Assembly (NCBI GenBank): GCA_947628895.1
Contig: CANRBS010000003.1
Coordinates: forward strand, 1,325-65,324
DNA: 64,000 nt
Reading direction: 5' to 3'
DNA from: an uncultured Bacilli bacterium
Lineage (GTDB): Bacteria > Bacillota_I > Bacilli_A > RF39 > UBA660
The translations under genes and the position numbers were made by a program. Shown here piece by piece: positions 17,196 through 39,242 of the stretch; positions within the stretch are counted from its first letter, which is position 1, and each line of letters opens with the position of its first letter. The notes beneath the pieces are model-generated. The model was not told the origin of the DNA. It saw only the letters and a program-made list of their open reading frames with translations, and made no database searches.

Positions 17196-17203
17196 ATCAC
17201 TAA

Positions 17204-17626: not shown

Positions 17627-17711
17627 ACTAAACCTTCTTTCAATATTACTATGTATTCTTTATAACAATTATATCAAATAAAAGAAATATTTTAAAGTAT
17701 TTTTTTATATA

Positions 17712-18350: not shown

Positions 18351-18352
18351 TT

Positions 18353-19984: not shown

Positions 19985-20041
19985 TTTCTCTCCTTATTAT
20001 ATATTAATGATATCACATTTTTAATTAAAAAAAAATATGAA

Positions 20042-20551: not shown

Positions 20552-20611
20552 AATATATCCTTACCCTTCAATATAATATTATTTTATCACAATTTTAAAT
20601 ATTATTAAACT

Positions 20612-20662
20612 TTAATTAAAAAAGAAAGATTACTTTTATAATTATTTTTATAATCTTTCTTT
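20612..20662 (-). terminator. Rho-independent terminator after the 1335-aa gene
   Basis: AAAGAAAGATTA (20621-20632) pairs with TAATCTTTCTTT (20651-20662). On the minus strand the hairpin is followed by a T-run. Confidence 0.6.
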
Positions 20663-20667
20663 TTTAC

Positions 20668-23600: not shown

Positions 23601-24675
23601 TATTTCCACCATCTAAATCAAATCCTTGATTTGGATTTACACAATATGCTGGAACATTACCTACTTGAAATGATGGAGTACATGCTTGAAATGTTTGTAA
23701 TTGCCTATTGCATTGATAAACTGGACACATTAATCTGTATCTTATTGACCGATTTCCAGTAGCAAAACCTATTGCATTTGGTTCTATCTTTGCTGCTGCA
23801 CTTTCACACAATCCCCAAAAATCTTCGTTTGTTTTTTCACCTTCTGTTGCTATTACTACTTCAAATGGATCAATAGTTTTAAGACAATTATTTAGAAGTA
23901 CATTTGAACCTAAGTGTAGAGTATAATCATCATTTTTGCATTTATAACACCTTTGATTGCTACTATTATATGTATAGCCAGTTGGACATTTATAACATTT
24001 ATCAGTATTTAACAACATTTCGCCATTAGGGCAAGAATAATTAGTTGCACTATGATAAGTACCTGAACAATATCCATTATAACCACCTGTACAAGAACCT
24101 TTTCTACCATTTTTACCTACATTCCAAGTACATCCATTCCTAGTACACTGAGTAATATTTGAATAATTACAACTTTTTGGATCATGCCAAGTACATGTAG
24201 ATTTGTTGTTGCATGTACTTTTAGAAAGACCACTACAATTTGACCAAATTTTATTTTCTGTAGCCTTTCTCATATAAGTTAAATTTGAAGATAGCATTTC
24301 GCCTTTAGCAACAACTACACAAAGGCCAAATGCTTCAACTTTTCTTTCATCACTTGAGCATCTTTGATAATAAGTTGTATATGTTCCTTTATTATCTGGT
24401 CTCCAATTAGTGGCTTGTAAAAGATCACTAAATGACTCTGCAACTTTATCATAATTTGGACCTTCATATACATTAGCAAAAGCTGGAGAACCATCTGCTG
24501 CTTTTGCTCTTGAAAATCCATTACAAACCTCTGTTTTAATATTAAATCCAGCAGGAGATGCTTGACTAGTTTCATTTATTTTTACATTGCAGTCATTAAT
24601 TCCTGCCTTGCTTATAGGAATAAATGAAAAAACAAGAGAAATTGTAAATAATAATTTTAAAAATTTCTTTTTCAT
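20668..24675 (-). CDS. Giant cysteine-rich secreted protein, unknown family (paralog B1)
   Basis: 1335 aa. Signal peptide MKKKFLKLLFTISLVFSFIPISKA, no C-terminal anchor. Many Cys, e.g. ...YSCPNGEMLLNTDKCYKCPTGYTYNSSNQRCYKCKNDDY.... Conserved blocks are shared with 25437-28985. The start lies 1 nt after the stop of the upstream 225-aa gene. Confidence 0.8.
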   Translation of the reverse strand: MKKKFLKLLFTISLVFSFIPISKAGINDCNVKINETSQASPAGFNIKTEVCNGFSRAKAADGSPAFANVYEGPNYDKVAESFSDLLQATNWRPDNKGTYTTYYQRCSSDERKVEAFGLCVVVAKGEMLSSNLTYMRKATENKIWSNCSGLSKSTCNNKSTCTWHDPKSCNYSNITQCTRNGCTWNVGKNGRKGSCTGGYNGYCSGTYHSATNYSCPNGEMLLNTDKCYKCPTGYTYNSSNQRCYKCKNDDYTLHLGSNVLLNNCLKTIDPFEVVIATEGEKTNEDFWGLCESAAAKIEPNAIGFATGNRSIRYRLMCPVYQCNRQLQTFQACTPSFQVGNVPAYCVNPNQGFDLDGGNNYKVDNDFDVTNCQTSYSTVDCGYANIMIEADYHKKKNNTNISDKAIELAMRIWGAHSGQAGFGNDKIGVSRAKWNGSSCADTGFFDSTNVYKNGYNHIFENYLKSLTAKNLPDNYLDVSQNYINDYFSEVTCNYTNMVCGSTTTLRQALALFYNTVLGNRYMQEHLEYLYGNEVNTRPDKVDVETSEEQNDKGEFVKGETNIVLTFDRTVTNTTKTEYNCKDVKKDAELPLDKRTYQDLTDTQRAYILQYCTVKVDNFCIYNDVTDKCEKIDVNDNDKIYDASKGQIIIDTEYFAVCTSENKNKYKEYQVSVNYKRPTQSTSVKKYVSCSNPTGNQIMFAFTTSENNKVSGEEEKNDSYYYPTEEYSVSLNCTGNCTDYSIKTSAPKCQDNDGGVYTGYVRDPSLKCIVNMYSDTNKSYYDYSEYFKVNTNLCRVYCADEVNYYIADKLTVSSGRSFTYDIKPGGVLENKDNKISSIIEEKRRCVSEIYYNKNFPESIDWKKLYGITDKDLEDAFPSGEKSINNIQDLLTVLFIKSQKENSRDENINQILYDLYNCNLYTEEAVKNTEQEKNGQVVIKENIIRQPQDNKTGNLNKYLKNLYSSENHYGLNNDITNTITYEGGAQYINNKNRFIGTNSDDIKVEKEIRSNLSDISYCSGDNCLEYDVSASQDDNYAYDKFKDESTTATVKNAIEVKKTLTGLTERLNDLYITKIPINDYAMFYTSIQIDFYNDSEFKMEALTGEVKKSTDEGSLDVVALDKYSYPTSKDAYNSGKCKVIDSNVARCDITQTINNMTTYYRRRSLDSFSKYLTSTDFTELTCHIDVTRPSVLPQESQSGNSDSITDPITKYRNVKLSDLFPNGDRINSNWATEYGKIAKNEIEKSSSQINSDLYLEYSFDLTPQSIREIKSYNRKVEGQGGYLNDTKISGTCTQKDNKFFNCKSSFLEEIRGGNSLYVNNNDQKNKFDGISKYTAEKK

Positions 24676-25419
24676 TTTATTTCTCTCTTTCTTTCTTTTT
24701 ATATTTCGTTATCTTTACTATATATATTATTGTTATTACTACTAATGGTACTAATACATATATTCCATATTCCATTGCTATTTTAAATATCTTACTTGCT
24801 GTTAATTCTTTCTCTTTTATTTGTCTATCATATTCTCCTAGTGTCTCTTTAAATTCACTCTCTTCCATATCCTTTGTTGCATTTGTATATGTTTTACATA
24901 ATTCATGATCTGGATATTCTTCACAATATTCTGTCTTTATATATCTATTAAATCTTGGCACTGTATATCTTAATGTCTTTAATAATTCATTTGGACATGC
25001 ACTATCTTCTTTTCCATATACTTCTATTGTATATGTCTCTTCTTCTAAATTTGTATAACATCCTACTCCATATATCCCTACACTATCATAATTCTTTCCT
25101 TCTGCCTTATTTCCACTTCCATCTGTTACTATTATCTTTACATCATCTCTTAATGGTGTTATTGATAAAAAATATGCATATGTTTCTTCTTCACTCATTT
25201 CTCCTGATGGATCTGTTGTCCTTGTATCTTCCTTAAATGTTGCACTTACTCCTACTGCCCATTCATTTAGTTCTTCATCATAACATAATGCTTTTACATT
25301 TATTACTAATAATGATGAAATTATTACTATAATTAATTTTACTAATTTTTTCATTATTTCACCTACTTTTACTCTAAATAAAATTATATCAAATAAAATA
25401 GAAAAAAGAAAGATTTTAT
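24643..25419. repeat. 777-bp direct repeat, copy 1 (5' end of B1, whole A1 gene, A1 upstream region)
   Basis: Aligned by eye to 28953-29729 at a constant offset of 4310 nt with no indels. I found about five mismatches. Confidence 0.9.
24677..25354 (-). CDS. Small secreted protein with C-terminal TM anchor (paralog A1 of the cassette)
   Basis: The track ORF (272 aa) is trimmed to the internal ATG at 25354. That start gives the 225-aa MKKLVKLIIVIISSLLVINVKA... form, which differs at only two residues from 28987-29664, and it has AGGTGA upstream. Five Cys, an E/K-rich segment, then C-terminal helix + KYKKKEREK. Confidence 0.75.
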   Translation of the reverse strand: MKKLVKLIIVIISSLLVINVKALCYDEELNEWAVGVSATFKEDTRTTDPSGEMSEEETYAYFLSITPLRDDVKIIVTDGSGNKAEGKNYDSVGIYGVGCYTNLEEETYTIEVYGKEDSACPNELLKTLRYTVPRFNRYIKTEYCEEYPDHELCKTYTNATKDMEESEFKETLGEYDRQIKEKELTASKIFKIAMEYGIYVLVPLVVITIIYIVKITKYKKKEREK

Positions 25420-25432
25420 AAAAATCTTTCTT
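25395..25432 (-). terminator. Rho-independent terminator after the 1182-aa gene
   Basis: AAGAAAGATTTT (25406-25417) pairs with AAAATCTTTCTT (25421-25432). The minus strand then reads TTTTCTATTTT. The duplication boundary (25419) falls in the loop. Confidence 0.65.
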
Positions 25433-25436
25433 AAAC

Positions 25437-28400
25437 TTATTTATTTTCTTTAGTATATTTTGAAATACCATCAAATTTATTATTAGGACTATCATTATCT
25501 ACATATAATGAATTACCACTACCTATATCTCTTAAGAATGAACTTTCACAATTAAAGTATTTATCATTTGTTAAAGTACAATTTGATAATGTATTATTTA
25601 AGTAACCACCGTTTTTTTCCATTCTAGAATTATAATTTTTAATTTCTCTAATAGATTCTGGTGTTAAATCAAAACTATACTCTAAATAATAATCATCATT
25701 AGTAATTCTACTTGAAGATTCAGCTATTTCATTTTTTGCTATAGTTCCATATTCAGTTGACCAATTTGTATTATCTCTTTCTCCATTTGGGAATAAATTT
25801 GATAAATCTACATCTCTATATATAGTCTTACTATTAGCTGACTGTTCTACTGTAACTTCAGGTATTTTTACATCTACAGAACAATTAAACTTTGTAAGAG
25901 TTGATTTAGTTAAAGCATTACTTAAGTCATCAGTTTTTCTATTTCTGTAAAAAGTACTTGCATTACTAAATGTTTGAGTAACACCACAACTTGCATAGTC
26001 TTTTGATGATTTGCTACATAAATTATATGCATTTTTAGATAATGGATATGAAAAACTATCTAGTTTAGCATAATTTTCATTATATGAACCTATAATCTTA
26101 TTTACTTTTCCACTATATTGTTCTATTTCAAATTCACTTGAATTATAGAAACCAATTTGTGTTGTTATAGTAAACATTGCATAATCATTAACAGGAATTT
26201 GTGTATCTAATATTTTCTTTAAATTCTTAATAGAAGTTGATTTACCATCAATTTCATATCCTGTTGATCCTAATTCAATATTACCAAAAGTATCATAAGT
26301 ATATTTTTCATTTTTACTATCATATGGCAAACATTCATAGCCAAATCCTGTACAATACTTAACATCTGATACTTGTGATTTAACTTCTTTCTTCATATCT
26401 ATATCATTGTTATTATTGCCTACTCTTGAAGATGAATTCATATATTCACTTCCACCTTCATATGAAACAGTATTTAGCCACATATCATCTAAATTTTTAG
26501 AATCTACTAAACCATAATTATTTTTACTATTAAATAAAGTATTTACATAATTATAAGAATCTCCGATAGTATTATCTTTAGGTCTTGTTATATTTCCATT
26601 AGTAAATGTTGATATGTCTTTGACAAAATTACAATTATATAAATCATATACTAATTGATTTAAATTTTCAGATCTATAACCTTCAGATTGAGACTTTTTA
26701 AATAATACAAAGAATAAATCTTTCCAATTTCTAATTTTAGGATCATCTTTAAGATATTTATTAATTTCTTCTTCTGTTATTCCATATATTCCTTCCCAAT
26801 CAGGATTATTTGGAAATTCATTATTATAGTATATTTCAGAGACACAATTTCTCTTTTCTTCAATAATACTACTAAACATTTTACCACTATCATTTAATAG
26901 ATTACCTGGTTTAATATCATATTTAAATTGTAAACCAGAAACAGCATCTATTTTTCCTGCTATATGATAGTTAACTTCATCACTACAATATACTCTACAT
27001 AAATTTGTATTTACTTTAAAGTAATTGCTATAATCATAATAATTTTTATTTGTATTTGAACCCATATTAATAATACAACTTAATGATGGATCTTTTACTG
27101 TACTAGTATAGTACTTATTGTATTCTTTTTGACTTTCACATTTACTTACATTTTCTCTTATTCCATAATTAGTACAAGCACCTGCACAATTAATAGATAT
27201 ATTAAATAGTTTATCATCTTTTTCATCTTTTGTTATACTTTCACCTGGTACTTCTTCAGTAACAGAAACTCCTTGAAATGAAAATAAGTATTGATTTTCT
27301 TCTGGTTCACTACAAGCAATATATTTTTCAACACTAGTCTGTGTTTTAGTTTTTAAATATTCAACTTCTAATTCATAATGAGTATATTTCTTTTGACCAT
27401 TAACTTTACAAGCAGCAAACTTTTCTATATCAAAATCTATTGTTCCTTTATATCCATCAAATTCTTTACTATCTTTATCTACATCAATAGGTATTCTATT
27501 TCCATCATTGTCATATACAAAGAAATTTAAAACTTCAATATTACAATATTTTAATATATTTTCTCTTAAAGGTTCATCTATATTAGGATATTTTCTTTTT
27601 TCTTTTGGTAAATCTTTATCTTTTTCTAAATCATTACAATTAAATGTTTCTTCAGTTTGAATATTAACATTTCTTTCAAATGATAATTCTAATCTTGATT
27701 TTTCTTCTACAGTTTCTACTATAGCATTTGTAGGTTCAGTATTAATATCATATCCTACAATACTATATAGATGTTCTTGCATATATTTATTTCCATTATA
27801 TGTATTAAAGAATAAAGCTATAGCTTCAGCATAATTTAGTAATTTACCACAAACCAAACTGTTTTGTGAATTTTTACATGTAACTTCATCAAAATAACTA
27901 TTAGCTTTGCTAGCATCTACATATTCTTCTTTACTTATTTTATCAAAGAAATATTTCCAAATATAATCATGTGTTATTTTATAAATATTAATTACATCAT
28001 CATCTGCAACAAAAGTTACATACTCACTACAAGAACCGCCTATTACATTAGCTACTCCAACTTTTTTATCATCAAATCCTGCTCCACCAGTATGAACACC
28101 CCATAATCTTAATGCAAGTTGTATTTGTTGCTCATCAATATTATGATATTTTCCCTCAATTAATATATTAGCATAACCACAATCTGCTCTATTAAAGCTT
28201 GATGCAAAACATTTATTAATATCAAAAGTTTTATCTAACATATAATTATTACCATTTGATAAAAATGGAGCAAATCCTTGACTAGGATTAACACAATAAG
28301 CTGGTTTTTCACCAGTTGTAAATGTTGGTGTACAAGTAGATACCTCTTCAGTTTTTGCATCACATCCATATAGTGGACAATTTAATGTATATGTTTCACT

Positions 28401-28985
28401 AGTACACTTAGTACAATTATTATCATTTTCTTGATTACATGTAGCTAAAGCATCAAAAGAAGAATCAATATTAGTAAAATCTTTTGACCAAGTAGTTGTT
28501 GTAGTATCAGATTCCCATTTTCTATTTTTATAACAATATCCATTACTTAGATAAGGATATCCAGTTGGACAACGGTGGTTTACCATAGGAGTGCCATCAC
28601 TATAATGCCAATATGGATCACCTTTTGTTTCAACTGTACAAGTTACATTAGCATCTATATGTGCATCAGGAACATCACATCTTTTGACTTGTACTGTTTC
28701 AATTGTTTTAGCATCAATTGATTCTCTAGTTTTATATACCCATTCATTTTGATAATCAAAAGCGGCTTTAACAGTATCAAAACTTTCTGTATCCCATCCT
28801 TTTGGCACAGCATTTTCCATATCACATATAGTAAGATTAGAACTCCAACTAGTATTCCATGTAGAAGGATCATTTTCAGTTATTCTAATAGTACACTCAT
28901 TTCCTGTTACATCAGCATTAGTAAGTGGAATAAATATAAAAGTAAATAAAACTGTAAATAATAATTTTAAAAATTTCTTCTTCAT
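25437..28985 (-). CDS. Giant cysteine-rich secreted protein, unknown family (paralog B2)
   Basis: 1182 aa. Signal peptide MKKKFLKLLFTVLFTFIFIPLTNA. Blocks shared with B1 include ...CTPTFTTGEKPAYCVNPSQGF..., ...DCGYANILIEGKYH..., ...ALRLWGVHTGGAGF..., ...FKVNTNLCRVYCSDEVNYHIA... and ...LEYSFDLTPESIREIKNYN.... Confidence 0.8.
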   Translation of the reverse strand: MKKKFLKLLFTVLFTFIFIPLTNADVTGNECTIRITENDPSTWNTSWSSNLTICDMENAVPKGWDTESFDTVKAAFDYQNEWVYKTRESIDAKTIETVQVKRCDVPDAHIDANVTCTVETKGDPYWHYSDGTPMVNHRCPTGYPYLSNGYCYKNRKWESDTTTTTWSKDFTNIDSSFDALATCNQENDNNCTKCTSETYTLNCPLYGCDAKTEEVSTCTPTFTTGEKPAYCVNPSQGFAPFLSNGNNYMLDKTFDINKCFASSFNRADCGYANILIEGKYHNIDEQQIQLALRLWGVHTGGAGFDDKKVGVANVIGGSCSEYVTFVADDDVINIYKITHDYIWKYFFDKISKEEYVDASKANSYFDEVTCKNSQNSLVCGKLLNYAEAIALFFNTYNGNKYMQEHLYSIVGYDINTEPTNAIVETVEEKSRLELSFERNVNIQTEETFNCNDLEKDKDLPKEKRKYPNIDEPLRENILKYCNIEVLNFFVYDNDGNRIPIDVDKDSKEFDGYKGTIDFDIEKFAACKVNGQKKYTHYELEVEYLKTKTQTSVEKYIACSEPEENQYLFSFQGVSVTEEVPGESITKDEKDDKLFNISINCAGACTNYGIRENVSKCESQKEYNKYYTSTVKDPSLSCIINMGSNTNKNYYDYSNYFKVNTNLCRVYCSDEVNYHIAGKIDAVSGLQFKYDIKPGNLLNDSGKMFSSIIEEKRNCVSEIYYNNEFPNNPDWEGIYGITEEEINKYLKDDPKIRNWKDLFFVLFKKSQSEGYRSENLNQLVYDLYNCNFVKDISTFTNGNITRPKDNTIGDSYNYVNTLFNSKNNYGLVDSKNLDDMWLNTVSYEGGSEYMNSSSRVGNNNNDIDMKKEVKSQVSDVKYCTGFGYECLPYDSKNEKYTYDTFGNIELGSTGYEIDGKSTSIKNLKKILDTQIPVNDYAMFTITTQIGFYNSSEFEIEQYSGKVNKIIGSYNENYAKLDSFSYPLSKNAYNLCSKSSKDYASCGVTQTFSNASTFYRNRKTDDLSNALTKSTLTKFNCSVDVKIPEVTVEQSANSKTIYRDVDLSNLFPNGERDNTNWSTEYGTIAKNEIAESSSRITNDDYYLEYSFDLTPESIREIKNYNSRMEKNGGYLNNTLSNCTLTNDKYFNCESSFLRDIGSGNSLYVDNDSPNNKFDGISKYTKENK

Positions 28986-30325: not shown

Positions 30326-30358
30326 AAAAAGAATATTTTAGTCATAATATTCTTTTTT
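30325..30358. terminator. Bidirectional rho-independent terminator between convergent genes
   Basis: AAAAAAGAATATT (30325-30337) pairs with AATATTCTTTTTT (30346-30358). The arms themselves are A/T-runs, so it can act on either strand. Confidence 0.6.
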
Positions 30359-30515
30359 ATTTAAACTAGTTTGTAATTTTTTAAATTCATTATTATCTTT
30401 AAATAATTCTTTAGCTTTTTCACTATCACAAAAACATTTTATATATTCTTTATATACTTCTTTGTCTTTTTTATTTTTATTAATTATATTTTTTATTTTC
30501 TCTATCATAACTCAC

Positions 30516-33110
30516 CTATTCATTTTGTACTTCTATTATTGTTAAATTATTTTCTTTAGCAATATTTAAAAGTTCATCATTTAATAAACCAACTATTATT
30601 ATAAATGCTGGACTCATAGTTGATAATTCAATATTATCTTTATTAACTTTAATAGTGGTCTTATTATTAATTGTTGTAAATCTAATAGAACCTGTCTTTA
30701 TTAATTTATCATATCCATAACTATTTTTATCAAGATTTACAATACTTGAACACAGATAATGTATACCATCATTATTAGTACTAGTAAGTACTTTAAACTC
30801 TTGACCAACTATAGTATATACTTTTACACCATTTCTTTCATTTTTTAAAACAATATCTGGTCTATATTTATACAATTCTTCTATTTCATTTAAAGATACA
30901 ATCATATTATTTATAAGTTCAACTTTATATTCTTTTATTTTATTAAATAGCTCATTAACACTAAATATGTTTCTTTTAACTTTATTAGTAATTATATTTT
31001 CTAAAAAAGATAATATTAAATCAAAATCATTGCTTGAAAATAATAATTTAGTCATACAAAACAAATTTACTTCATCATCTGTAAATATATTTTTATCATC
31101 AATTTTTAAAGTTTCAAGTGCTTCACTATCAAAAACATCACATATATTTTTTATAGTATCTACATCTAACCAACCACAATTTCCTTTTTCATCATATGAT
31201 TTATTAAATAAATACTTACATAATAAATTTTTATAAACATTTTCATCTTTTGTTACAGATAATTCTTCAACAATTTTTTTAATATAAAAAGTATCATAAG
31301 AAGATAGTTCTTCTTTTTTAGTTACATTATATTGATTTAATCCAGAAGATAATAGTAAAATTAAATTTTCAATTTCTAAATCTGTTAATTCTTTATCTTT
31401 TATATCTAATAATATATCTTTATAATATGTAAAATTTTCTATTGTTTTATATAATGATTCTTTATTTTTACCATATATTTCTATCATTATATAATAATAT
31501 TCTTTAAACAAATCATACATTTTATCAGATTTAATTATCAATAATAAATTTGATATATTAACAAAATTATATTTTGAATAATCTTGTAATAAATCATCAT
31601 CTATAAAAGATAATCTATTATCAAATAGTTCAAGTGAATTAATATTATATAAGTCTTTATTATTTTTAATTTTTCTTTTATATGCATTTGATAATATTTC
31701 ATTTAATATAGTTATTCTTTGAGCCGTTATTTTATTATTAGTTTTATCTTTATATAATATTGAAGAACCTATATATACAGATATTTTATCAAAAGCATTT
31801 GCTGTAATTATTTTTTTATTAAATAATATTTTAAATAATTCAAATATACAATTATAGTCTTTTTCATAATCATATTCATCCATATTTTCTATATATGTAT
31901 TATAAATTTTGTTTATAAGTTTGTAATATTTAGAATATATATCATTATTATCATAATATGATTTAAATAAATTTAAACATCTTGAATTACTATCAATTAT
32001 TATTTTTTCTTTTACGGCTTTTTCCTCATCTTTATTGTATAAAGGAACAACATATGGAAGAACATAGTTTACATCAATATTAATAAGTGATTTTATTTGA
32101 TCTAAATTAAGTTCTTGTAATATTTTAATAATTCTTTTTGTATATTGATAACTTATATCATTACTTTTAGAATCAAATCTATAAAGTTTTCCTTTTGCAT
32201 TAAATAAATTTTTATTAACCAATATATTTACTATTTCTTTAATTGATGATGATTCTATATTTTCTAAAATTCCATATACTATTTCTTGTGTTTTATCTTC
32301 TTTATTTTTTAGTATTGATAAGTTTACATATTTAATTAATTCTGTATCGTATTTTAATAATTTAACTAATATATCTTCTTCTATATAATTTATCATATAT
32401 GGATAAGTTTTAATATATTCTTTTTGTATATCAATATTTGCAGTATTAAAATTAGTAAAATCTTCTTTTATTTTATTAATTTGACTTTCTAAATATTTAT
32501 CTCTTGCAGAACCATTTAAATATGTAATGAATTCTTCTTTATCTGTATATTTATTTTGAACATTTTGATTAGCATATTTAATAAATATTGGATTTACTTC
32601 TAATATGTATTCCCATTGCTTATCAGTTAATTTATCTTTTATTTTTTCTATTAATTTTTCAGTTTCTTTTACATCTGAATTAGAAAGAACGGTTATTACT
32701 TTTTTTAAATCATCCATAAATAGTAATGTTATATCATCTGGTTGACTAAAATATAATTTTAAATAATTATTGTATTCTTCTTCATCGAATCCTACTACAA
32801 GTGCATTCATAAAAAATTTATTACCATGCATCCATAAACTTACTAGTTCTCTTTTTGCTTCTTTACTTCCTAAATTAAACATAGTAAGATTACTATTTAT
32901 TCTAGATACTTGAAAATCTAAAGGCAATATTCTAATTAAAGAGGGATGATTAAAAAACAAATAACTAAGTACTATTTCATTATTTGCAAATTCTTTATTA
33001 TCAAGATAAGCTATTTCTATTTCTTTTTCACTTTTATTTTTAAGTTTTGCTATGAAATCATTAGCTTTTCTTTGAACTTGTCTATTTTTCATATCTTTTA
33101 ATAGTGACAT
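30516..33110 (-). CDS. Large cytoplasmic protein, unknown function
   Basis: 864-aa uninterrupted ORF in very AT-rich DNA. Predicted mostly helical and K/N/I/E-rich. No signal peptide, TM or catalytic motif that I recognise. Confidence 0.7.
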   Translation of the reverse strand: MSLLKDMKNRQVQRKANDFIAKLKNKSEKEIEIAYLDNKEFANNEIVLSYLFFNHPSLIRILPLDFQVSRINSNLTMFNLGSKEAKRELVSLWMHGNKFFMNALVVGFDEEEYNNYLKLYFSQPDDITLLFMDDLKKVITVLSNSDVKETEKLIEKIKDKLTDKQWEYILEVNPIFIKYANQNVQNKYTDKEEFITYLNGSARDKYLESQINKIKEDFTNFNTANIDIQKEYIKTYPYMINYIEEDILVKLLKYDTELIKYVNLSILKNKEDKTQEIVYGILENIESSSIKEIVNILVNKNLFNAKGKLYRFDSKSNDISYQYTKRIIKILQELNLDQIKSLINIDVNYVLPYVVPLYNKDEEKAVKEKIIIDSNSRCLNLFKSYYDNNDIYSKYYKLINKIYNTYIENMDEYDYEKDYNCIFELFKILFNKKIITANAFDKISVYIGSSILYKDKTNNKITAQRITILNEILSNAYKRKIKNNKDLYNINSLELFDNRLSFIDDDLLQDYSKYNFVNISNLLLIIKSDKMYDLFKEYYYIMIEIYGKNKESLYKTIENFTYYKDILLDIKDKELTDLEIENLILLLSSGLNQYNVTKKEELSSYDTFYIKKIVEELSVTKDENVYKNLLCKYLFNKSYDEKGNCGWLDVDTIKNICDVFDSEALETLKIDDKNIFTDDEVNLFCMTKLLFSSNDFDLILSFLENIITNKVKRNIFSVNELFNKIKEYKVELINNMIVSLNEIEELYKYRPDIVLKNERNGVKVYTIVGQEFKVLTSTNNDGIHYLCSSIVNLDKNSYGYDKLIKTGSIRFTTINNKTTIKVNKDNIELSTMSPAFIIIVGLLNDELLNIAKENNLTIIEVQNE

Positions 33111-33271
33111 AACTTAACCTCTTTACTCTATTTTTACTATTAAATTATATCATAATAAAAAATGAAATGAAATATTTTTATTAATTATTATTTTTGTAAA
33201 GTTATACTTTATATTTTAAAATTATAATGTTATAATTATTATTAAGGAGATAAACCAATAGTTGGGTGTTA

Positions 33272-33291
33272 CCTTCTCTTCCAAGAGGAGG
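33272..33291 (+). promoter_or_regulatory. SD-sequestering hairpin in the 5' UTR of the small hydrophobic ORF
   Basis: CCTTCTC (33272-33278) pairs with GAGGAGG (33285-33291) over 7 bp including one G-U, around a 6-nt loop. The 3' arm is the ribosome-binding site. Confidence 0.4.
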
Positions 33292-33298
33292 TGGTATT

Positions 33299-33388
33299 AT
33301 GAATAAGAAAGATTTATTAATTTTTTTATTAATATCAATTATATTTCTATTATTATTTATAATATTAATTATTTTAATAGTTTTATAA
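33299..33388 (+). CDS. 29-aa hydrophobic peptide, candidate type I toxin
   Basis: ATG 33299, preceded by GGAGG with a 7-nt spacer. Translation is MNKKDLLIFLLISIIFLLLFIILIILIVL, stop TAA 33386-33388. Below the ORF-track length cutoff. Confidence 0.5.
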   Translation: MNKKDLLIFLLISIIFLLLFIILIILIVL

Positions 33389-33390
33389 TT

Positions 33391-33508
33391 TTTAAAATAG
33401 AAAAACACCTAACTCAACTTTTGAATTAGGTGTACTAAGATAACGGTAACACCCAACAACGAAATATTGGTATGTTTCCTTTTTTATTTTATTCAAGTTT
33501 TCCTTGAT
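33391..33508 (-). ncRNA. Candidate ~120-nt antisense sRNA (type I antitoxin) convergent with the small ORF
   Basis: Bounded by the minus-strand promoter at 33515-33543 and by the hairpin ACACCTAA (33405-33412) / TTAGGTGT (33426-33433). On the minus strand that hairpin is followed by TTTTTCTATTTT. The 5' end is inferred, not observed. Confidence 0.4.
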
Positions 33509-33514
33509 GAATAC

Positions 33515-33543
33515 ATAATACCATAAATTATTGATTTTTACAA
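33515..33543 (-). promoter_or_regulatory. Near-consensus sigma-A promoter reading into the pcrA-distal intergenic region
   Basis: Minus strand reads TTGTAA (33543-33538), a 17-nt spacer, then TGgTATTAT (-10 at 33520-33515). Confidence 0.5.
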
Positions 33544-33550
33544 GTAATGA

Positions 33551-35635
33551 CTATTTTTTCCTCAAATATTTGTGATTAGCTGCAATGGATTTTATACCTA
33601 CTCCATAAGAGAATGCTATTGTAGCAATACCACCGCTTATATTTATAACGACTCCTTCTCCAAATACTGTATGAATAACTTTATCTCCAGCTTTTATTTC
33701 ATCAGATGATTCATTATACATATTACCTATTACTTTAGTTTCATTGTTTTTAATTTGATCTTCTTTTGTATTTGTAATATTTAATAAACTTTTATCTATT
33801 TCTTTAATAAATCTACTTTCTATAGTACCACTTGTTTTACCATAAAGTGTTCTACTTCTTGCACTAAGTAAATAAAGTTTTGTTTTAGCACGAGTAATTC
33901 CTACATAACAAAGTCTTCTTTCTTCCTCAAGTTCACTTTCACTTTCAAAACTTCTCATATGTGGAAATATTCCCTCTTCCATTCCTAGTATAAATACTAC
34001 TTTAAATTCAAGTCCTTTAGCAGAATGTAATGTCATTAAATTAACAGCTTCTTTATTTTCTTTATATTGTCCTGCATCACTTACTAAAAGTATATTTTCT
34101 AAAAATGTTTGTAAGTCATAAATACCACTTTCTTCAAATGCAACAGCTACACTTTTAAATTCATTTAAGTTTTCTATTTTAGCTTCATTTTCAAGTGATT
34201 TATTATTTTCATATTCCATTCTAAGTCCAGTTTTAACAAGTACGGTTTCAATTAAATCAGATAAACTTAATGAAGTTGAATCTTCTTTTAATTCTAGTAT
34301 TATGTTTTTCCATTCTAGTTCTTTTCCAGAATCAATCGCATCAAACATAGATATGTTATTTAACTGTGCTTTTTCTCTTAAAGATTCTATTGTTTTAGTA
34401 CCAATTCCTCTTTTTGGAGTATTAATAACTCTTTCTAAACTTACTGAATCATTTGTATTATAAATTAAGTTTAAATATGCGATTAAATCTTTTATTTCTT
34501 TTCTACTATAAAAGTAATAACTACCTATAATATTATATGGAATATTACTTCTTAAAAATTCATCTTCAATAACTCTACTTTGAGCATTAGTTCTATAAAG
34601 AACAGCAAAGTCATTATAATTGTATCCAAGAGATACTAAATCTCTTATTTTAGCTGTAACATAATGAGCTTCTTTTATTTCATCATCTACTCTTATATAA
34701 TCTATTTTTTCTCCATCACCAGAAGAAGTCCAAAGATTTAATTTTTTACCTTCATTATTATTTTTAATAACAGAATTTGCTGCCTTTAAAATATTATTTG
34801 TACTTCTATAATTTTCTTCAAGTAAAACTACTTTTGCGGTTTTATAATCTTTTTCAAAATTTAATATATTCCTATAGTCAGCATTTCTCCATGAATAAAT
34901 TGATTGATTAGCATCCCCTACTACAAATATATTTTTATATTTACTTGCTAACATCTTACATAATTCATATTGAATACTATTAGTATCTTGATATTCATCC
35001 ACTAAAATATATTGAAATCTTGTTTGATATTTATTTAATATTTCTGGATATTTTTTAAATAATTCTACTGGCTTTAATAATAAATCATCAAAATCAACAG
35101 AATTATTTTCTTTTAATAATTTTAAGTATTTTTCATATATAACAGCTATTACTTTATCATCTTCTTTTAAAAATAGCCTATTATATTCAGCGGGTGTAAT
35201 CCCATCATTTTTAGAACTACTAATTCTTGATATTATATGTTTTATATCATAATCTTTTGGATCTAAATCCATTTCTTTTATTATTCTTTTTATTAATGAT
35301 TTAGTATCATCACTATCAAGTATTGTAATATTAGAAGTATACCCTACTTCTCTATAATTTTCTCTTAATATTCTAAGTCCAAAAGAGTGAAAAGTTCCAA
35401 TAAAAATAGAATCAGTACTAGTACCTAATTTTAATTCTACTCTATCTCTCATTTCTTTAGCAGCTTTATTTGTAAATGTTATAGCTAAAATATTATAAGG
35501 ACTTACTCCTTCATCAATTAATTTTATTATTCTTTCTGTCAGTACTCTTGTTTTACCACTTCCAGCTCCTGCTAGTACTAAACAAGGTCCATCTTTATGT
35601 TCAATTGCTTCAATTTGTTTTTCGTTTAATGTCAT
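33551..35635 (-). CDS. pcrA: ATP-dependent DNA helicase PcrA (UvrD/Rep family, SF1)
   Basis: 694 aa. ...GPCLVLAGAGSGKTRVLTERI... (motif I), ...ILVDEYQDTN... (motif II), ...VGDANQSIYSWRNA..., ...NYRST..., ...LMTLHSAKGLEF..., ...ERRLCYVGITRAK.... C-terminal ...GDKVIHTVFGEGVV.... Confidence 0.95.
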   Translation of the reverse strand: MTLNEKQIEAIEHKDGPCLVLAGAGSGKTRVLTERIIKLIDEGVSPYNILAITFTNKAAKEMRDRVELKLGTSTDSIFIGTFHSFGLRILRENYREVGYTSNITILDSDDTKSLIKRIIKEMDLDPKDYDIKHIISRISSSKNDGITPAEYNRLFLKEDDKVIAVIYEKYLKLLKENNSVDFDDLLLKPVELFKKYPEILNKYQTRFQYILVDEYQDTNSIQYELCKMLASKYKNIFVVGDANQSIYSWRNADYRNILNFEKDYKTAKVVLLEENYRSTNNILKAANSVIKNNNEGKKLNLWTSSGDGEKIDYIRVDDEIKEAHYVTAKIRDLVSLGYNYNDFAVLYRTNAQSRVIEDEFLRSNIPYNIIGSYYFYSRKEIKDLIAYLNLIYNTNDSVSLERVINTPKRGIGTKTIESLREKAQLNNISMFDAIDSGKELEWKNIILELKEDSTSLSLSDLIETVLVKTGLRMEYENNKSLENEAKIENLNEFKSVAVAFEESGIYDLQTFLENILLVSDAGQYKENKEAVNLMTLHSAKGLEFKVVFILGMEEGIFPHMRSFESESELEEERRLCYVGITRAKTKLYLLSARSRTLYGKTSGTIESRFIKEIDKSLLNITNTKEDQIKNNETKVIGNMYNESSDEIKAGDKVIHTVFGEGVVINISGGIATIAFSYGVGIKSIAANHKYLRKK

Positions 35636-36428: not shown

Positions 36429-37577
36429 TTACATTTTACTTAATTTCTTTACAAAGTTATTTTCTGTAGTATACTCTTCATAACATTCTTTTATATAATG
36501 TTTAATATATTCCATTTTATTTTCTATATCTTTTACTAATGCTATTTGATTTCTTGCTCTATCTAAATTATGTTTTTCATAATTTATTTTAAAGTATGTA
36601 TCTCCATTAATATAATCATTTAAAAATCTAATTGCTAATTCTAATGTAATTATTCTAATTGATTCTGCCATTAGAGAAAGTTCTTCATAAGTAATATAAT
36701 TTGCCATTTCACTTAAATAACCCCTAGTATAAGACTTAAATAATTCTAAGTTTAAATATACTTTACTTAAATCAGTTTCATCTTCTTTAGCATTAGCCGC
36801 AGTACTTCTTACTCCATCTCCATAATCAAATAACATACTTCCCGGCATTACTGTATCTAGGTCTATTACTGCAAGATAATCATTTGTATCTTTATTCATC
36901 ATAACATTATTAACTTTAGTATCATTATGTGTAACTCTAAGAGGAATTGAATCACTTCCTAATTCTTCAGTTATTAAAGAGCATATTTCCTCTCTCATTA
37001 ATATAAATACTATTTCAGGTGCTACTTCTATTGCTCTTCCTTCTGAATCTATCTTAATATCATCCATTAATTGTTTATATCTTTTATCTGTAATATGAAA
37101 GTCTTTAATGGTTTCAGTTAATCTTTTAATAGGATAATTTCTAAGTAATCTTTGAAAATTGCCAAAAGCTTTTCCTGTATTATATACAATATTTGGATCA
37201 GTTGATGTATCATATGCAATTGCATTATCAATATATTCATAAATTCTATAATATTGTCTTTCACCTGGATGTGGTTCTATATAACAAAGTGATTTATTAT
37301 TTTTAGTTTTAATAACTTTTAAAACTTTATGAGTATAGTCTCCTTCTTTTTGCATTTGCATTTCTAAATAATCTGTAATATTTTCAATATTTTTCATTAG
37401 TTTATATGGTTCTGAAAAAACATTTGTATTAATTTTTTGAACTAAATATTTTTTAAATGAACCATCTTCTAATTCCATAGTTACTGCATATGTACTATTA
37501 ATATTACCTGAAGTGTTTTCTTCAATTTTAATAATCTTTCCTTCTATATTAAAGTTATTAATTATTTCTTCAATCAT
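36429..37577 (-). CDS. Phosphotransferase of the APH/choline-kinase fold, N-acetylhexosamine 1-kinase (NahK)-like
   Basis: 382 aa. ...RVTHNDTKVNNVMMNKDTNDYLAVIDLDTVMPGSMLFDYGD... is the Brenner/catalytic-loop plus DxD region of this kinase fold. The HNDTK.NN / IDLDTV form is what I associate with NahK-type sugar kinases. Confidence 0.6.
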   Translation of the reverse strand: MIEEIINNFNIEGKIIKIEENTSGNINSTYAVTMELEDGSFKKYLVQKINTNVFSEPYKLMKNIENITDYLEMQMQKEGDYTHKVLKVIKTKNNKSLCYIEPHPGERQYYRIYEYIDNAIAYDTSTDPNIVYNTGKAFGNFQRLLRNYPIKRLTETIKDFHITDKRYKQLMDDIKIDSEGRAIEVAPEIVFILMREEICSLITEELGSDSIPLRVTHNDTKVNNVMMNKDTNDYLAVIDLDTVMPGSMLFDYGDGVRSTAANAKEDETDLSKVYLNLELFKSYTRGYLSEMANYITYEELSLMAESIRIITLELAIRFLNDYINGDTYFKINYEKHNLDRARNQIALVKDIENKMEYIKHYIKECYEEYTTENNFVKKLSKM

Positions 37578-37622
37578 ATTATCTCCTTTAAATTACAAGT
37601 ATTTATTATACTTATAAAAAAG

Positions 37623-39242
37623 TTAATTATCAACAAAATATACACTAATTTTGTAAAAAACATTATATCTTTTAGTACTTTTAGTATCATACCCTCTTTT
37701 AAATTTATATTCTTTGTTTAGATATATTTCATTTTTATAATTTAAATATATATCTAAATTAATTATATTATCTATTTTATATACTTCAATATATTTTAAT
37801 ATTAAATTTATTATTTTTTCTTTGTTTATATTATTTATTTTATTATTTAATTTTTGTTTATAATTTATTTTATTCTTAGAATTTAAATGATTTAATTTAT
37901 TTTTTAATTCTAATATTTCATTATTTAATTCACTATTTTTATTTTTAAATTCTTTATTAGATAAACTATTTTCTAAATTAAGTTCTAATATTTTTTCTTT
38001 CTTTAAATTTAAATATTTAATTTTATTTTCTAGTTTTTCTTTTTTATTAGTATCATCATTTTCATAATAATTATAATTCTTTAATAGTATTTCTTCTATT
38101 TCTTTAAAATCAATATTTAAATTATCTATCAAATCATACATTATTTTATTTAATTCACTTTCTCTAATATTTGGACTATCACAATACTTTTTACCTTTTT
38201 TTAAATATCCACTGCATACCCAAGTTACATCTTTATTATTTTTTCTAAATATTCTTCTATAAAATAATGATTTATCATTTTTACAATATATTTTATTTGA
38301 ATATAAATATAGTTTTTTATTAATTTTCTTTTTTCTTTTATTAAGTAATATATTTGCTCTTTGCCATAATTCTTCACTAATTATTGGTGGAACTTTAATA
38401 TTATCTTTATATATAATCCATTTATTTTTATTTAAATAATCTACTCTTTTAGTCATATAATCAACAACATGAGTTTTATTAGCACAATAATATCCTTTAT
38501 ATTTTGGATTTTCTATCATTCTTGATATAGTAGATACACTCCATTTATTATTAAAACTTGTTTTTATATTTAATTCATTTAATTTTTTTACTATTTTAGT
38601 AAGTGATAAATTATCTATTGTATACATTTCATATATTTTTCTTACTATACTAGCTTCTTTTTCTACTATTTTAAGTGTATTATTTATTTTATCTTTTTTA
38701 TATCCATACATCATATCATTACCAAGAATTTCTCCATTTTTAATTGCTCTTTTCATACCAAACTTTACTCTTTCAGATAGTCTTCTTACTTCATCTTGTG
38801 CCATTGATGCCATAATTGTAAGTCTTAATTCTGAATCACTAAGTGCTGTATTTATATTATCATTTACAAATAGTACAGCTACTCCATATGAAAGTAATTC
38901 TCTTGTATATTTTATACTATCTAAAGTATTTCTTGAAAATCTTGATATTTCTTTTGTAATAATTAAATCAAATTTATTACGGCTTGCATCCTCTATCATT
39001 TTCATAAAATTATCTCTTTTAATATCACTAGTTCCACTTATACCATCATCTATATATCCTTTTACATAAGTCCAATTAGGATTAGATTTTATATATTCAT
39101 AAAAGTGTTCTTTTTGATTATTTAATGATTTCTTTTGTTCTAATGAATCAGTTGATACTCTTACATAATCTGTTACTCTAAGTTTAATGTTTGATAGTGG
39201 CACTCCCATATTTAATTCATTTCTTATTTTATATAAATCCAA
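37623..39242 (-). CDS. Large serine recombinase (resolvase/invertase N-domain + recombinase domain + Zn-ribbon/coiled-coil)
   Basis: 539 aa. TTG start 6 nt after GAGGTGA. ...VTDYVRVSTDSLEQKKSLNNQ... (catalytic Ser region), ...ITKEISRFSRN..., ...RLSERVKFGMK.... Later Cys cluster ...YCKND...WVCSGYLKKGKKYCDS..., then a long K/N-rich coiled-coil. Confidence 0.85.
   Translation of the reverse strand: MDLYKIRNELNMGVPLSNIKLRVTDYVRVSTDSLEQKKSLNNQKEHFYEYIKSNPNWTYVKGYIDDGISGTSDIKRDNFMKMIEDASRNKFDLIITKEISRFSRNTLDSIKYTRELLSYGVAVLFVNDNINTALSDSELRLTIMASMAQDEVRRLSERVKFGMKRAIKNGEILGNDMMYGYKKDKINNTLKIVEKEASIVRKIYEMYTIDNLSLTKIVKKLNELNIKTSFNNKWSVSTISRMIENPKYKGYYCANKTHVVDYMTKRVDYLNKNKWIIYKDNIKVPPIISEELWQRANILLNKRKKKINKKLYLYSNKIYCKNDKSLFYRRIFRKNNKDVTWVCSGYLKKGKKYCDSPNIRESELNKIMYDLIDNLNIDFKEIEEILLKNYNYYENDDTNKKEKLENKIKYLNLKKEKILELNLENSLSNKEFKNKNSELNNEILELKNKLNHLNSKNKINYKQKLNNKINNINKEKIINLILKYIEVYKIDNIINLDIYLNYKNEIYLNKEYKFKRGYDTKSTKRYNVFYKISVYFVDN

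What the first reader, a model, noticed from the sequence alone, without database searches (positions are those of the whole stretch)
33194..33543. Candidate type I toxin-antitoxin module between the 864-aa gene and pcrA
Seen, in four parts. (1) A 29-codon ORF (33299-33388, +) encodes MNKKDLLIFLLISIIFLLLFIILIILIVL, a short charged N-terminus followed by a single hydrophobic helix. GGAGG lies 7 nt upstream. (2) CCTTCTC (33272-33278) can pair with the SD GAGGAGG (33285-33291). (3) A perfect 13-nt inverted repeat flanks the ORF: GTTGGGTGTTACC (33261-33273) and GGTAACACCCAAC (33445-33457). It could close the mRNA 5' and 3' UTRs, and its 5' copy overlaps the SD hairpin arm by 2 nt. (4) On the minus strand there is a near-consensus promoter (TTGTAA, 17 nt, TGgTATTAT at 33543-33515). 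There is also a hairpin (33405-33433) followed by TTTTTCTATTTT. Together these predict a ~120-nt RNA convergent with the ORF and complementary to its 3' UTR. That RNA itself carries GUUGGGUGUUACC, so it would compete with the 5' UTR for the 3' partner. A possible plus-strand promoter is TTGTAA, 17 nt, TAAAAT near 33194-33222. A weak plus-strand terminator lies at 33461-33490. Established: small hydrophobic toxins with sequestered SDs and convergent 3'-overlapping antitoxin RNAs define type I TA loci such as txpA/ratA and bsrG/SR4 in Bacillus subtilis. Inference: this is a new member. The 68-aa track ORF on the minus strand is probably spurious.
Basis: partly seen in the sequence, partly recalled or inferred. 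Interest (0 to 1): 0.7.

Follow-up and report, generated by a model that had tools for sequence, protein, structure and literature searches.

The report
New type I toxin-antitoxin family

Summary

**In the window**
- The sORF, its sequestered GGAGG, the inverted repeat and the minus-strand promoter and terminator are all at the stated coordinates.
- The inverted repeat is longer than reported: 33244-33273 pairs with 33445-33481.
- The block is a lineage-specific insertion. Relatives have only about 65-90 bp upstream of the 864-aa gene.

**In the family**
- Scans found more than 60 homologous copies in low-GC gut and rumen contigs. They sit in many unrelated housekeeping contexts and are often in tandem arrays.
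- All share both promoters, a 5'-3' closing stem, an anti-SD hairpin, a 21-31-aa ORF (M-x-KKD-[FL], then about 21 hydrophobic residues) and a hairpin after the stop codon.
- Covariation is strong: 27 of 36 pairs change on both sides, and 0 of 500 shuffles reach this.
- G·U wobbles are strand-specific. The closing stem folds in the plus RNA. The post-stop hairpin folds in the minus RNA, where it acts as the antisense terminator.
- Codon position 2 is 87% T.

**Comparison with known families**
Nothing matches in Rfam, Pfam or NCBIfam. This is a new family of a known kind, closest in layout to the Gram-positive 3'-overlapping systems such as bsrG/SR4.

**Limits**
Toxicity and both transcripts remain untested.

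The parts
33208..33236 (+). Promoter of the peptide mRNA: TTTATA, 17 nt, TGtTATAAT (extended -10)
   Evidence: One search gives 10 of 12 matches with TG. It aligns with the conserved TGnTATAAT box of the family. An extended -10 is present in 30 of 50 copies, against 12% of shuffles.
33243..33492 (+). Predicted peptide (toxin) mRNA, about 250 nt. The ends are inferred, not mapped.
   Evidence: MFE is -75.2 kcal/mol, z = -9.4. The nhmmer family profile matches 33250-33487 with E = 2e-34.
33244..33273 (+). 5' arm of the 5'-3' long-distance stem. It contains GTTGGGTGTTACC at 33261-33273.
   Evidence: Across the family, 21 of 25 pairs of the two stem segments have changes on both sides. G·U outnumbers A·C 106 to 25 on the plus strand.
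33275..33291 (+). SD-sequestering hairpin: anti-SD UCUCUUC (33275-81), loop CAA, SD GAGGAGG (33285-91). The alternative register CCUUCUC 33272-78 applies when the 3' arm is occupied.
   Evidence: The SD is at least 4/5 paired in 46 of 47 family copies. The anti-SD sequences differ between copies but keep pairing.
33299..33388 (+). 29-codon ORF encoding MNKKDLLIFLLISIIFLLLFIILIILIVL, the candidate toxin.
   Evidence: It is unique in the window. There are 44 distinct homologous peptides of 21-36 aa, most 21-31. Codon position 2 is 87% T. Entropy by codon position is 0.87/0.33/0.96. pN/pS is 0.48 in frame against 0.64 and 1.71 out of frame.
33393..33433 (-). Intrinsic terminator of the antisense RNA: hairpin 33433-33405 followed by the T-run TTTTTCTATTTT (33404-33393). 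It probably also ends pcrA transcripts.
   Evidence: It is the only terminator-like site in 32900-33800. It is conserved with 6 of 8 pairs covarying. Wobble pairs occur on the minus strand only, 14 against 1.
33445..33481 (+). 3' arm of the long-distance stem. It contains GGTAACACCCAAC at 33445-33457 and is also the core target of the antisense RNA.
   Evidence: The LDI duplex is -38.3 kcal/mol, against -154.7 kcal/mol for the antisense duplex.
33482..33492 (+). U-tract directly after the 3' arm; likely 3' end of the mRNA.
   Evidence: TTTTTTATT is conserved at this position in most copies. The local hairpin alone is weak.
33395..33508 (-). Predicted antisense (antitoxin) RNA, about 114 nt, fully complementary to the mRNA 3' UTR. 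It carries GUUGGGUGUUACC, the same sequence as the mRNA 5' arm.
   Evidence: The fold has z = -5.2. The promoter and terminator that bracket it are conserved.
33493..33507 (-). 5'-terminal hairpin of the antisense RNA: UCAAG-GAAAA-CUUGA.
   Evidence: Other copies have ATGAAG/CTTCAT, ATGAAA/TTTCAT, ATGAAT/ATTCAT, ATGCAT/ATGCAT or GCAA/TTGC at the same place.
33515..33543 (-). Promoter of the antisense RNA: TTGTAA, 17 nt, TGgTATTAT. It starts 8 nt after the pcrA stop codon.
   Evidence: Across the family, 41 of 50 copies score at least 9 of 12, and 41 of 50 have an extended -10 TG, against 18% of shuffles.

Best explanation
The region is a chromosomal type I toxin-antitoxin-like module of a previously uncatalogued family. 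It was inserted between pcrA and the 864-aa gene.

Shown by sequence comparison:
- A plus-strand mRNA of about 250 nt is transcribed from its own extended -10 promoter.
- Its first 30 nt pair with the last 37 nt before a U-tract. This 5'-3' stem closes the whole molecule.
- A local anti-SD hairpin buries the GGAGG.
- The mRNA encodes a 29-aa peptide with a KKD head and one hydrophobic helix.
- A convergent minus-strand RNA of about 114 nt has its own promoter, a 5' hairpin and an intrinsic terminator placed just after the stop codon. It is perfectly complementary to the mRNA 3' UTR, including the 3' arm.

Inferred:
- The full-length mRNA is stable but translationally inert.
- The antisense RNA invades the 3' UTR and displaces the 5' arm, whose sequence it copies.
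- The resulting duplex of about 100 bp is cut by RNase III, as in the Bacillus 3'-overlapping systems. The SD stays buried, or becomes more so.
- If the antisense RNA is lost, residual translation yields a membrane-damaging peptide.
- pcrA read-through probably adds to antisense transcription in this particular copy.
For: **Insertion**
- Relatives with 62-82% identical 864-aa proteins have only about 65-90 bp upstream of that gene.

**Family**
- One further copy is in a GTDB genome, two came from a peptide profile, and 60 of 64 hits to an SD + MxKKD[FL] pattern carry a 21-31-aa hydrophobic ORF.
- The flanks span 124 Pfam families with no common neighbour.
- Tandem arrays of 2-4 copies occur.

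**Structure**
- 93% of cells are paired, against 37-45% in the slid controls.
- 27 of 36 pairs have changes on both sides, and 0 of 500 shuffles reach this.
- 41 of 47 copies have at least 15 LDI pairs in the MFE fold, and the SD is paired in 46 of 47.

**Strand-specific wobble**
- In the LDI, G·U outnumbers A·C 106 to 25 on the plus strand.
- In the post-stop hairpin the ratio is 1 to 14, so it folds in the minus RNA.

**Other**
- Both promoters are conserved.
- The ORF has a coding signature.
- The layout matches the published descriptors of type I TA systems and of the Gram-positive 3'-overlap families (PMC8594479, PMC3834814).
Against: - No transcript, toxicity or neutralisation data exist.
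- The hosts are uncultured.
- In silico, the SD remains buried in the full-length, antisense-bound and 3'-truncated states. No activating state was found.
- The predicted SD-helix extension on antisense binding is only a trend: 20 copies up, 19 unchanged, 8 down, p = 0.06.
- The plus-strand terminator is weak as a local hairpin.
- The peptide lacks the polar C-terminal tail common in Fst and TxpA-type toxins.
- The metagenome pattern imposed the SD and the first six codons, so family membership is biased towards that N-terminus.
Confidence: 0.75

Rival explanations
1. This is a regulated small membrane protein gene that is not a toxin, for example a modulator of a membrane complex. Its cis-antisense RNA would be ordinary gene regulation rather than a toxin-antitoxin pair.
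For: Toxicity is untested. The peptide is a plain single transmembrane helix, and its weak, non-significant profile similarities are to transmembrane segments such as phospholamban, MacP and SecE. The ORF is under purifying selection, which any functional peptide would show.
Against: The module moves around the genome and has no conserved partner gene. It forms tandem arrays and leaves orphan antisense-only fragments. It also combines full SD burial, a 5'-3' lock and a dedicated antisense RNA. PMC8594479 names all of these as signatures of type I TA loci. They are not typical of housekeeping small proteins.
Confidence: 0.15
2. This is a MITE-like non-autonomous mobile element. The inverted repeats would be DNA-level terminal repeats recognised by a transposase, and the ORF and RNA features would be incidental.
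For: The window copy is an insertion absent from close relatives. Copies lie in many contexts, several directly beside tRNA genes. The inverted repeats are 30-37 nt.
Against: The conserved unit extends about 35-60 nt beyond both repeat arms and includes both promoters, so the arms are not termini. The arms tolerate G·U but not A·C (106 to 25), which is an RNA-level, strand-specific constraint. The ORF keeps its length and has 87% T at codon position 2. No transposase or integrase is enriched nearby. There are no hits in plasmid, phage or viral collections. Mobility by an unknown route is not excluded, but it would be in addition to the RNA function, not instead of it.
Confidence: 0.05
3. The minus-strand signals are only the pcrA 3' UTR and terminator, and the sORF is a chance product of AT-rich DNA.
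For: The pcrA stop codon (33551) lies 8 nt before the minus-strand -35 box. The hairpin at 33405-33433 is the first terminator downstream of pcrA. At about 20% GC, Ile/Leu/Phe-rich ORFs are easy to generate.
Against: Relatives end pcrA with a short terminator immediately after the stop codon and lack the whole block. The same block recurs more than 60 times without pcrA. An sORF with GGAGG and a transmembrane stretch arises in only 1 of 100 simulations.
Confidence: 0.02

Closest known systems
bsrG/SR4 and the related bsrE/SR5, bsrH, txpA/RatA and yonT/SR6 systems of Bacillus subtilis (Gram-positive type I TA with a 3'-overlapping antisense RNA)
   Same: Toxin mRNA and antitoxin RNA are convergent and overlap at the 3' end (PMC8594479). 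The toxin is a small hydrophobic peptide. A local helix sequesters the SD. In bsrG/SR4, antitoxin binding at the 3' end triggers RNase III decay and lengthens the SD helix from 4 to 8 bp (PMC3834814). In the window copy the predicted SD helix grows from 7 to 10 bp once the 3' arm is occupied.
   Different: There is no sequence or profile similarity in the peptide or the RNAs. The peptide is shorter (21-31 aa, against 38-59) and has no polar C-terminal tail. The mRNA is closed by a 25-30-bp 5'-3' stem that the antisense RNA mimics. Across the family, SD-helix extension is only a trend. In the window copy the overlap stops a few nt short of the stop codon (asRNA end about 33395, stop 33386-88); in typical 27-aa copies its U-tract reaches the stop.
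hok/Sok (plasmid R1) and aapA1/IsoA1 (Helicobacter pylori)
   Same: The full-length toxin mRNA is locked in an inert fold by a 5'-3' long-distance interaction together with SD sequestration. RNase III clears the RNA duplex (PMC5416894; PMC8594479 lists LDI and anti-SD as descriptors).
   Different: In those systems the antisense RNA is entirely overlapped by the mRNA and targets its 5' part or ORF (PMC8594479). 3' trimming exposes the SD there. Here the antisense RNA targets the 3' UTR, and removing the 3' arm does not expose the SD in silico. The hosts are Gram-negative, and there is no sequence similarity.
Fst/RNAII (par of pAD1) and SprA1/SprA1as
   Same: Convergent RNAs meet at a terminator hairpin placed right after a short hydrophobic toxin ORF in Firmicutes. 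Repeated sequence elements are shared between the two RNAs.
   Different: In Fst/RNAII the interaction lies outside the overlap, at 5' repeats covering the start codon (PMC8594479). Here the complementarity is the overlap itself, the terminator is unidirectional (minus strand only), and the peptides do not match Fst models.
Ibs/Sib and ShoB/OhsC (E. coli)
   Same: The toxins are very short, almost purely hydrophobic single-helix peptides (my own knowledge: 18-26 aa). The loci are multicopy.
   Different: Sib covers the whole ibs ORF, and OhsC is divergent and non-overlapping (PMC8594479). There is no similarity in sequence or RNA layout.

Membership tests
Type I toxin-antitoxin systems (class) | Short mRNA (150-400 nt) encoding a small, usually hydrophobic protein of 20-60 aa (PMC8594479) | tested here: met
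   The predicted mRNA is about 250 nt and the ORF is 29 aa. The family has 44 distinct peptides, most of 21-31 aa, that are 90% hydrophobic after residue 5, with a coding signature.
Type I toxin-antitoxin systems (class) | Antisense RNA of 60-200 nt, separately transcribed and complementary to the toxin mRNA | tested here: inconclusive
   In silico only. A conserved minus-strand promoter is present (41 of 50 copies with an extended -10). There is a 5' hairpin and a terminator with minus-strand-specific wobble pairs. The predicted RNA is about 114 nt. No transcript data were available.
Type I toxin-antitoxin systems (class) | Cis elements that block premature translation: anti-SD/SD pairing and/or a 5'-3' long-distance interaction | tested here: met
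   The SD is paired in 46 of 47 copies. An LDI of at least 15 bp is present in 41 of 47. 27 of 36 pairs covary, and 0 of 500 shuffles reach this.
Type I toxin-antitoxin systems (class) | Overexpressed peptide is toxic and the RNA neutralises it | not testable with these tools
   This needs expression experiments.
Type I toxin-antitoxin systems (class) | Multicopy or tandem occurrence in variable genomic locations (a search criterion of Fozo et al. 2010, as summarised in PMC8594479) | tested here: met
   Tandem arrays of 2-4 copies occur in at least 9 loci. There are 124 Pfam families among 90 flanking proteins. The window copy is an insertion.
Known antitoxin RNA families in Rfam (RatA, SR4-type, RNAII/par, SprA1as, Sib, Sok, IstR, OhsC, OrzO, symR and others) | Match to the family covariance model at or near the gathering score | tested here: not met
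   There are no hits at the gathering score in the window. Nothing lies within 33194-33543 at E <= 10; the only hit, symR with E = 1.7, lies at 33543-33628, almost entirely within pcrA. There are no module hits at E <= 0.1 in 20 other copies.
Known type I toxin protein families (Fst, TxpA, Hok/Gef, Ibs, Ldr, TisB and others in Pfam and NCBIfam) | Match to the family HMM | tested here: not met
   Eight representative peptides were scanned at E <= 10. Only non-significant similarities to transmembrane segments appeared (phospholamban, MacP, SecE, DUF2970).
MITE / non-autonomous transposon | Inverted repeats at the termini of the conserved unit, constrained at the DNA level | tested here: not met
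   Conservation extends beyond the arms into both promoters. Wobble asymmetry (106 G·U against 25 A·C) indicates constraint on one RNA strand. Target-site duplications were not examined systematically.

The most novel reading that the evidence does not exclude
The antisense RNA acts as a molecular mimic of the mRNA's own 5' end. Both carry GUUGGGUG(Y)UACC and a GGAACA-type leader, and they compete for the same 3' arm. This would make the module a three-strand exchange switch. In the closed state, 5' arm on 3' arm, the mRNA is a stable and silent reservoir. Antisense invasion frees the 5' arm, whose last CC then extends the anti-SD helix, and marks the 3' UTR duplex for RNase III. Such a design would merge the hok/aapA-type lock with the Bacillus-type 3' antitoxin in a single module. 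It would have spread widely, and until now unnoticed, through uncultured low-GC gut Bacilli.
Probability: 0.3. Interest if true: 0.65.

Novelty: new member of a known kind. Interest (0 to 1): 0.58.

Why it matters
- **It is a blind spot in annotation.** The family is invisible to current pipelines, which call a spurious 68-aa antisense ORF here. It is also absent from Rfam, Pfam and NCBIfam. Yet it recurs dozens of times in rumen and gut metagenomes from an uncultured low-GC Bacilli lineage.
- **It is ready for experiments.** The natural alignment already contains compensatory changes and strand-specific wobble signatures. These define two RNAs and their structures, and supply a set of variants for testing how a 5'-3' lock, an anti-SD hairpin and a 3' antisense RNA cooperate.
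- **It has practical uses.** The family can serve as a marker for gene-calling errors in AT-rich MAGs. Compact RNA switches of this type are also being reused as orthogonal regulatory devices (PMC12721322).

Tried and rejected
- **Rfam.** I ran the gathering threshold on the whole window, E <= 10 on the region, and E <= 0.1 on 20 other copies. There were no relevant hits.
- **tRNA/tmRNA scan of the window.** Nothing was found.
- **BLASTN of the block.** I searched plasmid and phage collections and ran two viral-contig pattern scans. Nothing was found, so there is no evidence for a phage or plasmid origin.
- **Exact two-arm pattern.** It found nothing in JGI metagenomes, because most copies differ by 1-2 nt in the arms. 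It found only one genome copy.
- **Direct peptide search.** I worked around this with the 40/41-aa extended ORFs.
- **Local plus-strand terminator.** It is not better than shuffles, z = -0.5.
- **Does antisense binding or 3' trimming expose the SD?** No. The SD stays buried in all three states.
- **Does antisense binding lengthen the SD helix across the family?** Only as a non-significant trend, p = 0.06.
- **Fozo 2010 supplementary tables.** They are not held, so I could not check their candidate peptides. A full-text search for KKDFLI, KKDLLI and MSKKDF found no paper.
- **The 68-aa minus-strand ORF.** It is not conserved; only 14 of 50 copies have an equivalent of at least 50 aa.
Full report
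**1. What is in the window**

- A 29-codon ORF lies at 33299-33388 on the plus strand and encodes MNKKDLLIFLLISIIFLLLFIILIILIVL.
- The SD GAGGAGG lies at 33285-33291, 7 nt upstream of the start codon.
- A perfect 13-nt inverted repeat joins 33261-33273 and 33445-33457. It is pair I14, and none of 100 shuffles gives two hits.
- The minus strand carries TTGTAA-17-TGgTATTAT at 33543-33515.
- The only terminator-like site in 32900-33800 is the minus-strand hairpin 33433-33405 followed by TTTTTCTATTT.

The repeat is in fact longer. With one 7-nt indel it runs 33244-33273 against 33445-33481 (I3 plus I14). The plus RNA 33243-33492 therefore folds with an end-to-end stem of about 29 bp, directly followed by a U-tract. 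The fold energy is -75.2 kcal/mol, z = -9.4.

A 7-bp hairpin stacks on top of that stem. It pairs UCUCUUC (33275-81) with GAGGAGG and buries the SD.

The predicted minus RNA (33508-33395) also folds better than shuffles, z = -5.2.

The window is about 20% GC, so hydrophobic ORFs are cheap to generate. Even so, this is the only 20-60-aa ORF in 64 kb that has both GGAGG and a hydrophobic stretch. Only 1 of 100 second-order Markov simulations produced one.

**2. It is an insertion**

The flanking genes are a PcrA/UvrD helicase (33551-35635, minus strand) and an 864-aa protein with no Pfam domain (30516-33110, minus strand). The 864-aa protein has more than 120 homologues at 47-82% identity in uncultured 'Bacilli bacterium' MAGs.

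In five related loci, the stop codon of the upstream gene lies only about 65-90 bp from the start of the 86x-aa gene. That space holds a short terminator and a TGnTATAAT promoter. In two of these loci the upstream gene is pcrA itself. The window has 440 bp at this position.

The block from about 33155 to 33545 is therefore a lineage-specific insertion. It replaced the pcrA terminator, so pcrA transcripts must now run into the antisense unit and stop at its terminator.

**3. It belongs to a large family**

I found further copies in three steps.
- A scan of one genome per GTDB species with both 11-nt arms found one further copy. It is in MAG RGIG2368 (goat ileum), between a zinc-ribbon membrane protein and a 333-aa ORF that looks tsaD-like from its sequence; that second identification was not tested. 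It is 79% identical to the window block, promoters included.
- A profile of the two extended ORFs found two called proteins. Their contigs carry two more copies, one beside a tRNA-Lys gene.
- From these four copies I wrote a pattern containing only the SD and the first six codons: GGAGGTGN{4,5}TATGANTAARAARGAYTT. It hit 64 metagenome contigs.

In 60 of those 64 contigs the start codon opens a hydrophobic ORF of 21-31 aa, most often 27 aa, of the form M-[STN]-KKD-[FL]-L... and often ending in ...VILK. ORF length and composition were not part of the pattern.

An nhmmer profile then revealed further copies in tandem. Arrays of 2-4 copies occur in L022, L023, L027, L052, L053/L070, L060, L064 and L067. 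These copies have intact ORFs with slightly different N-termini. Two fragments consist only of the 3' (antisense) part.

The window itself holds a single copy.

Carrier contigs are 19-33% GC, and the modules are intergenic. The 90 flanking proteins hit 124 different Pfam families. They are housekeeping genes such as Der, sigma-70, PBP, FemAB, MurG, RNase Y and ClpB. No neighbour recurs, and no integrase or transposase stands out. Five copies directly abut tRNA genes.

There are no matches in plasmid, phage or viral collections.

**4. Comparative evidence for two structured RNAs and a coding ORF**

I drew the structure by hand on a MAFFT alignment of 44 copies (A5). It comprises the outer and inner parts of the 5'-3' stem, three anti-SD pairs and the hairpin after the stop codon.
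- 93.0% of cells form standard pairs. The slid controls give 37-45%.
- 27 of 36 pairs have changes on both sides. The shuffle mean is 9.2, and 0 of 500 shuffles reach 27.
- Folded one at a time, 41 of 47 copies have at least 15 end-to-end pairs in the MFE structure.
- 46 of 47 copies have at least 4/5 of the SD paired.
- The median z-score is -8.4.

The wobble pairs show which strand folds.
- In the long-distance stem, G·U on the plus strand outnumbers A·C by 106 to 25. This stem is therefore selected in the plus RNA.
- In the post-stop hairpin the ratio is 1 to 14. This hairpin is therefore selected in the minus RNA, where it sits in front of a T-run. That is the expected signature of an antisense-RNA terminator.
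- This argues against a purely DNA-level terminal repeat and for transcripts on both strands.

Both promoters are conserved.
- Minus strand: 41 of 50 copies score at least 9 of 12, and 41 of 50 have an extended -10 TG. Shuffles give 18%.
- Plus strand: 32 of 50 copies score at least 9 of 12, and 30 of 50 have the TG. Shuffles give 12%.

Most copies have a short hairpin between the U-tract and the minus -10 box. In the window it is TCAAG/CTTGA. Elsewhere it is ATGAAG/CTTCAT, ATGAAA/TTTCAT, ATGAAT/ATTCAT or ATGCAT/ATGCAT. It would sit at the 5' end of the antisense RNA.

The ORF looks coding.
- Among 30 distinct 27-codon ORFs, beyond the six codons the pattern imposed, codon position 2 is 87% T.
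- Entropy at codon positions 1/2/3 is 0.87/0.33/0.96.
- pN/pS is 0.48 in frame, against 0.64 and 1.71 in the shifted frames.
- The 44 distinct peptides are 90% hydrophobic after residue 5, and 36 of them have no internal charge.

The annotated 68-aa minus-strand ORF is not conserved. Only 14 of 50 copies have an overlapping ORF of at least 50 aa.

**5. How it most likely works**

The architecture is shown by sequence comparison. The rest is inference by analogy.
- The primary mRNA is closed by its own ends and its SD is buried, so it should be long-lived and poorly translated.
- The antisense RNA is perfectly complementary to the 3' UTR from just after the stop codon to the U-tract. Its duplex energy is -154.7 kcal/mol, against -38.3 kcal/mol for the intramolecular stem.
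- The antisense RNA carries the same GUUGGGUGUUACC as the mRNA 5' arm. It should therefore displace that arm.

In the Bacillus 3'-overlap systems such a duplex is an RNase III substrate, and SR4 binding also lengthens the SD helix of bsrG from 4 to 8 bp (PMC3834814).

Across the family this lengthening is only a trend: 20 copies up, 19 unchanged, 8 down, p = 0.06.

The mean probability that GGAGG is unpaired is 0.075 for the full-length mRNA, 0.042 with the 3' UTR masked and 0.054 with the 3' arm truncated. I therefore found no activating state of the hok/aapA1 kind, in which 3' trimming exposes the SD (PMC5416894). How translation is ever licensed remains open.

**6. Comparison with what is known**

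The layout satisfies the published descriptors of type I TA loci (PMC8594479):
- an mRNA of 150-400 nt;
- a peptide of 20-60 aa;
- an antisense RNA of 60-200 nt;
- anti-SD pairing;
- a 5'-3' long-distance interaction;
- tandem, hydrophobic ORFs.

It also matches the arrangement typical of Gram-positive families, in which the antisense RNA overlaps the 3' side.

It is not a member of any curated family.
- Rfam 15 gives nothing for either strand in the window or in 20 other copies.
- Pfam and NCBIfam give nothing for eight representative peptides, even at E <= 10.
- No paper in the library contains the peptide motifs.

The closest systems by layout are bsrG/SR4 and its relatives. The 5'-3' lock is more like hok or aapA1.

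**7. Verdict**

This is a new family of a known kind. Toxicity, both transcripts and the activation step remain to be shown.

Noticed in passing
window 33111-33550; L004 454-542; L006 3426-3500; L007 3436-3500; L008 1502-3500: The region upstream of the conserved 86x-aa gene is a variable hot spot. pcrA is directly adjacent in L006 and L007. In L008 a 643-aa dockerin-domain protein sits between pcrA and the 86x-aa gene. L004 and L005 have a different upstream gene (glycine-rich C-terminus). The window has the TA-like module there.
   Followed up: partly
window 30338-30508 (-): A 56-aa ORF lies immediately downstream of the 864-aa gene. A 54-56-aa gene is called at the same position in every relative fetched (L004-L008). 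It appears to be a conserved small partner protein with no Pfam hit on record.
   Followed up: no
window 36429-39242 (-): A 382-aa APH-family phosphotransferase-like protein and a 539-aa large serine recombinase (Resolvase, Recombinase and Zn_ribbon_recom domains) lie about 3-6 kb beyond pcrA. This hints that part of the window may be an integrated element.
   Followed up: no
window 13901-28985 (-): A run of large proteins without Pfam domains (1335, 272, 1182 and 225 aa) sits next to a 543-aa sortase-domain protein and a T2SSE-type secretion ATPase. It may be a pilus or surface-protein assembly cluster. A 3031-aa ORF also lies at 51089-60184.
   Followed up: no
L023 3275-3365; L035 3718-3851: These fragments contain only the 3' half of the module: the hairpin, the 3' arm and the antisense promoter side. 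They have no SD or ORF, and they lie beside complete copies. They may be orphan antitoxin genes or decayed copies.
   Followed up: partly
L010 693-768; L018 515-591; L039 6078-6153; L057 591-667; L060 944-1019: Five family copies lie directly beside tRNA genes (Lys-ctt twice, Met-cat, Glu-ctc twice) on the antisense-promoter side of the module. Whether this reflects an insertion preference is unknown.
   Followed up: no
L010 456-563: One copy has lost its stop codon, so the peptide reads through the hairpin and gains 8 residues (...VILKEAPNSTLR). It also has a wobble and a mismatch in the 13-nt arms. It may be a decaying copy.
   Followed up: no
A5 columns 29/250 (window 33269/33449): One position inside the 13-nt arm exists in three states across the family: U-A (11 copies), C-G (10) and a C·A mismatch (17). 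The mismatch is the commonest state, so a deliberately weakened point in the closing stem seems to be tolerated or favoured.
   Followed up: no
L019 26-239 (-): A T-box leader (Rfam RF00230, 143.6 bits) lies directly next to a family copy. It is probably just the neighbouring gene's regulator.
   Followed up: no
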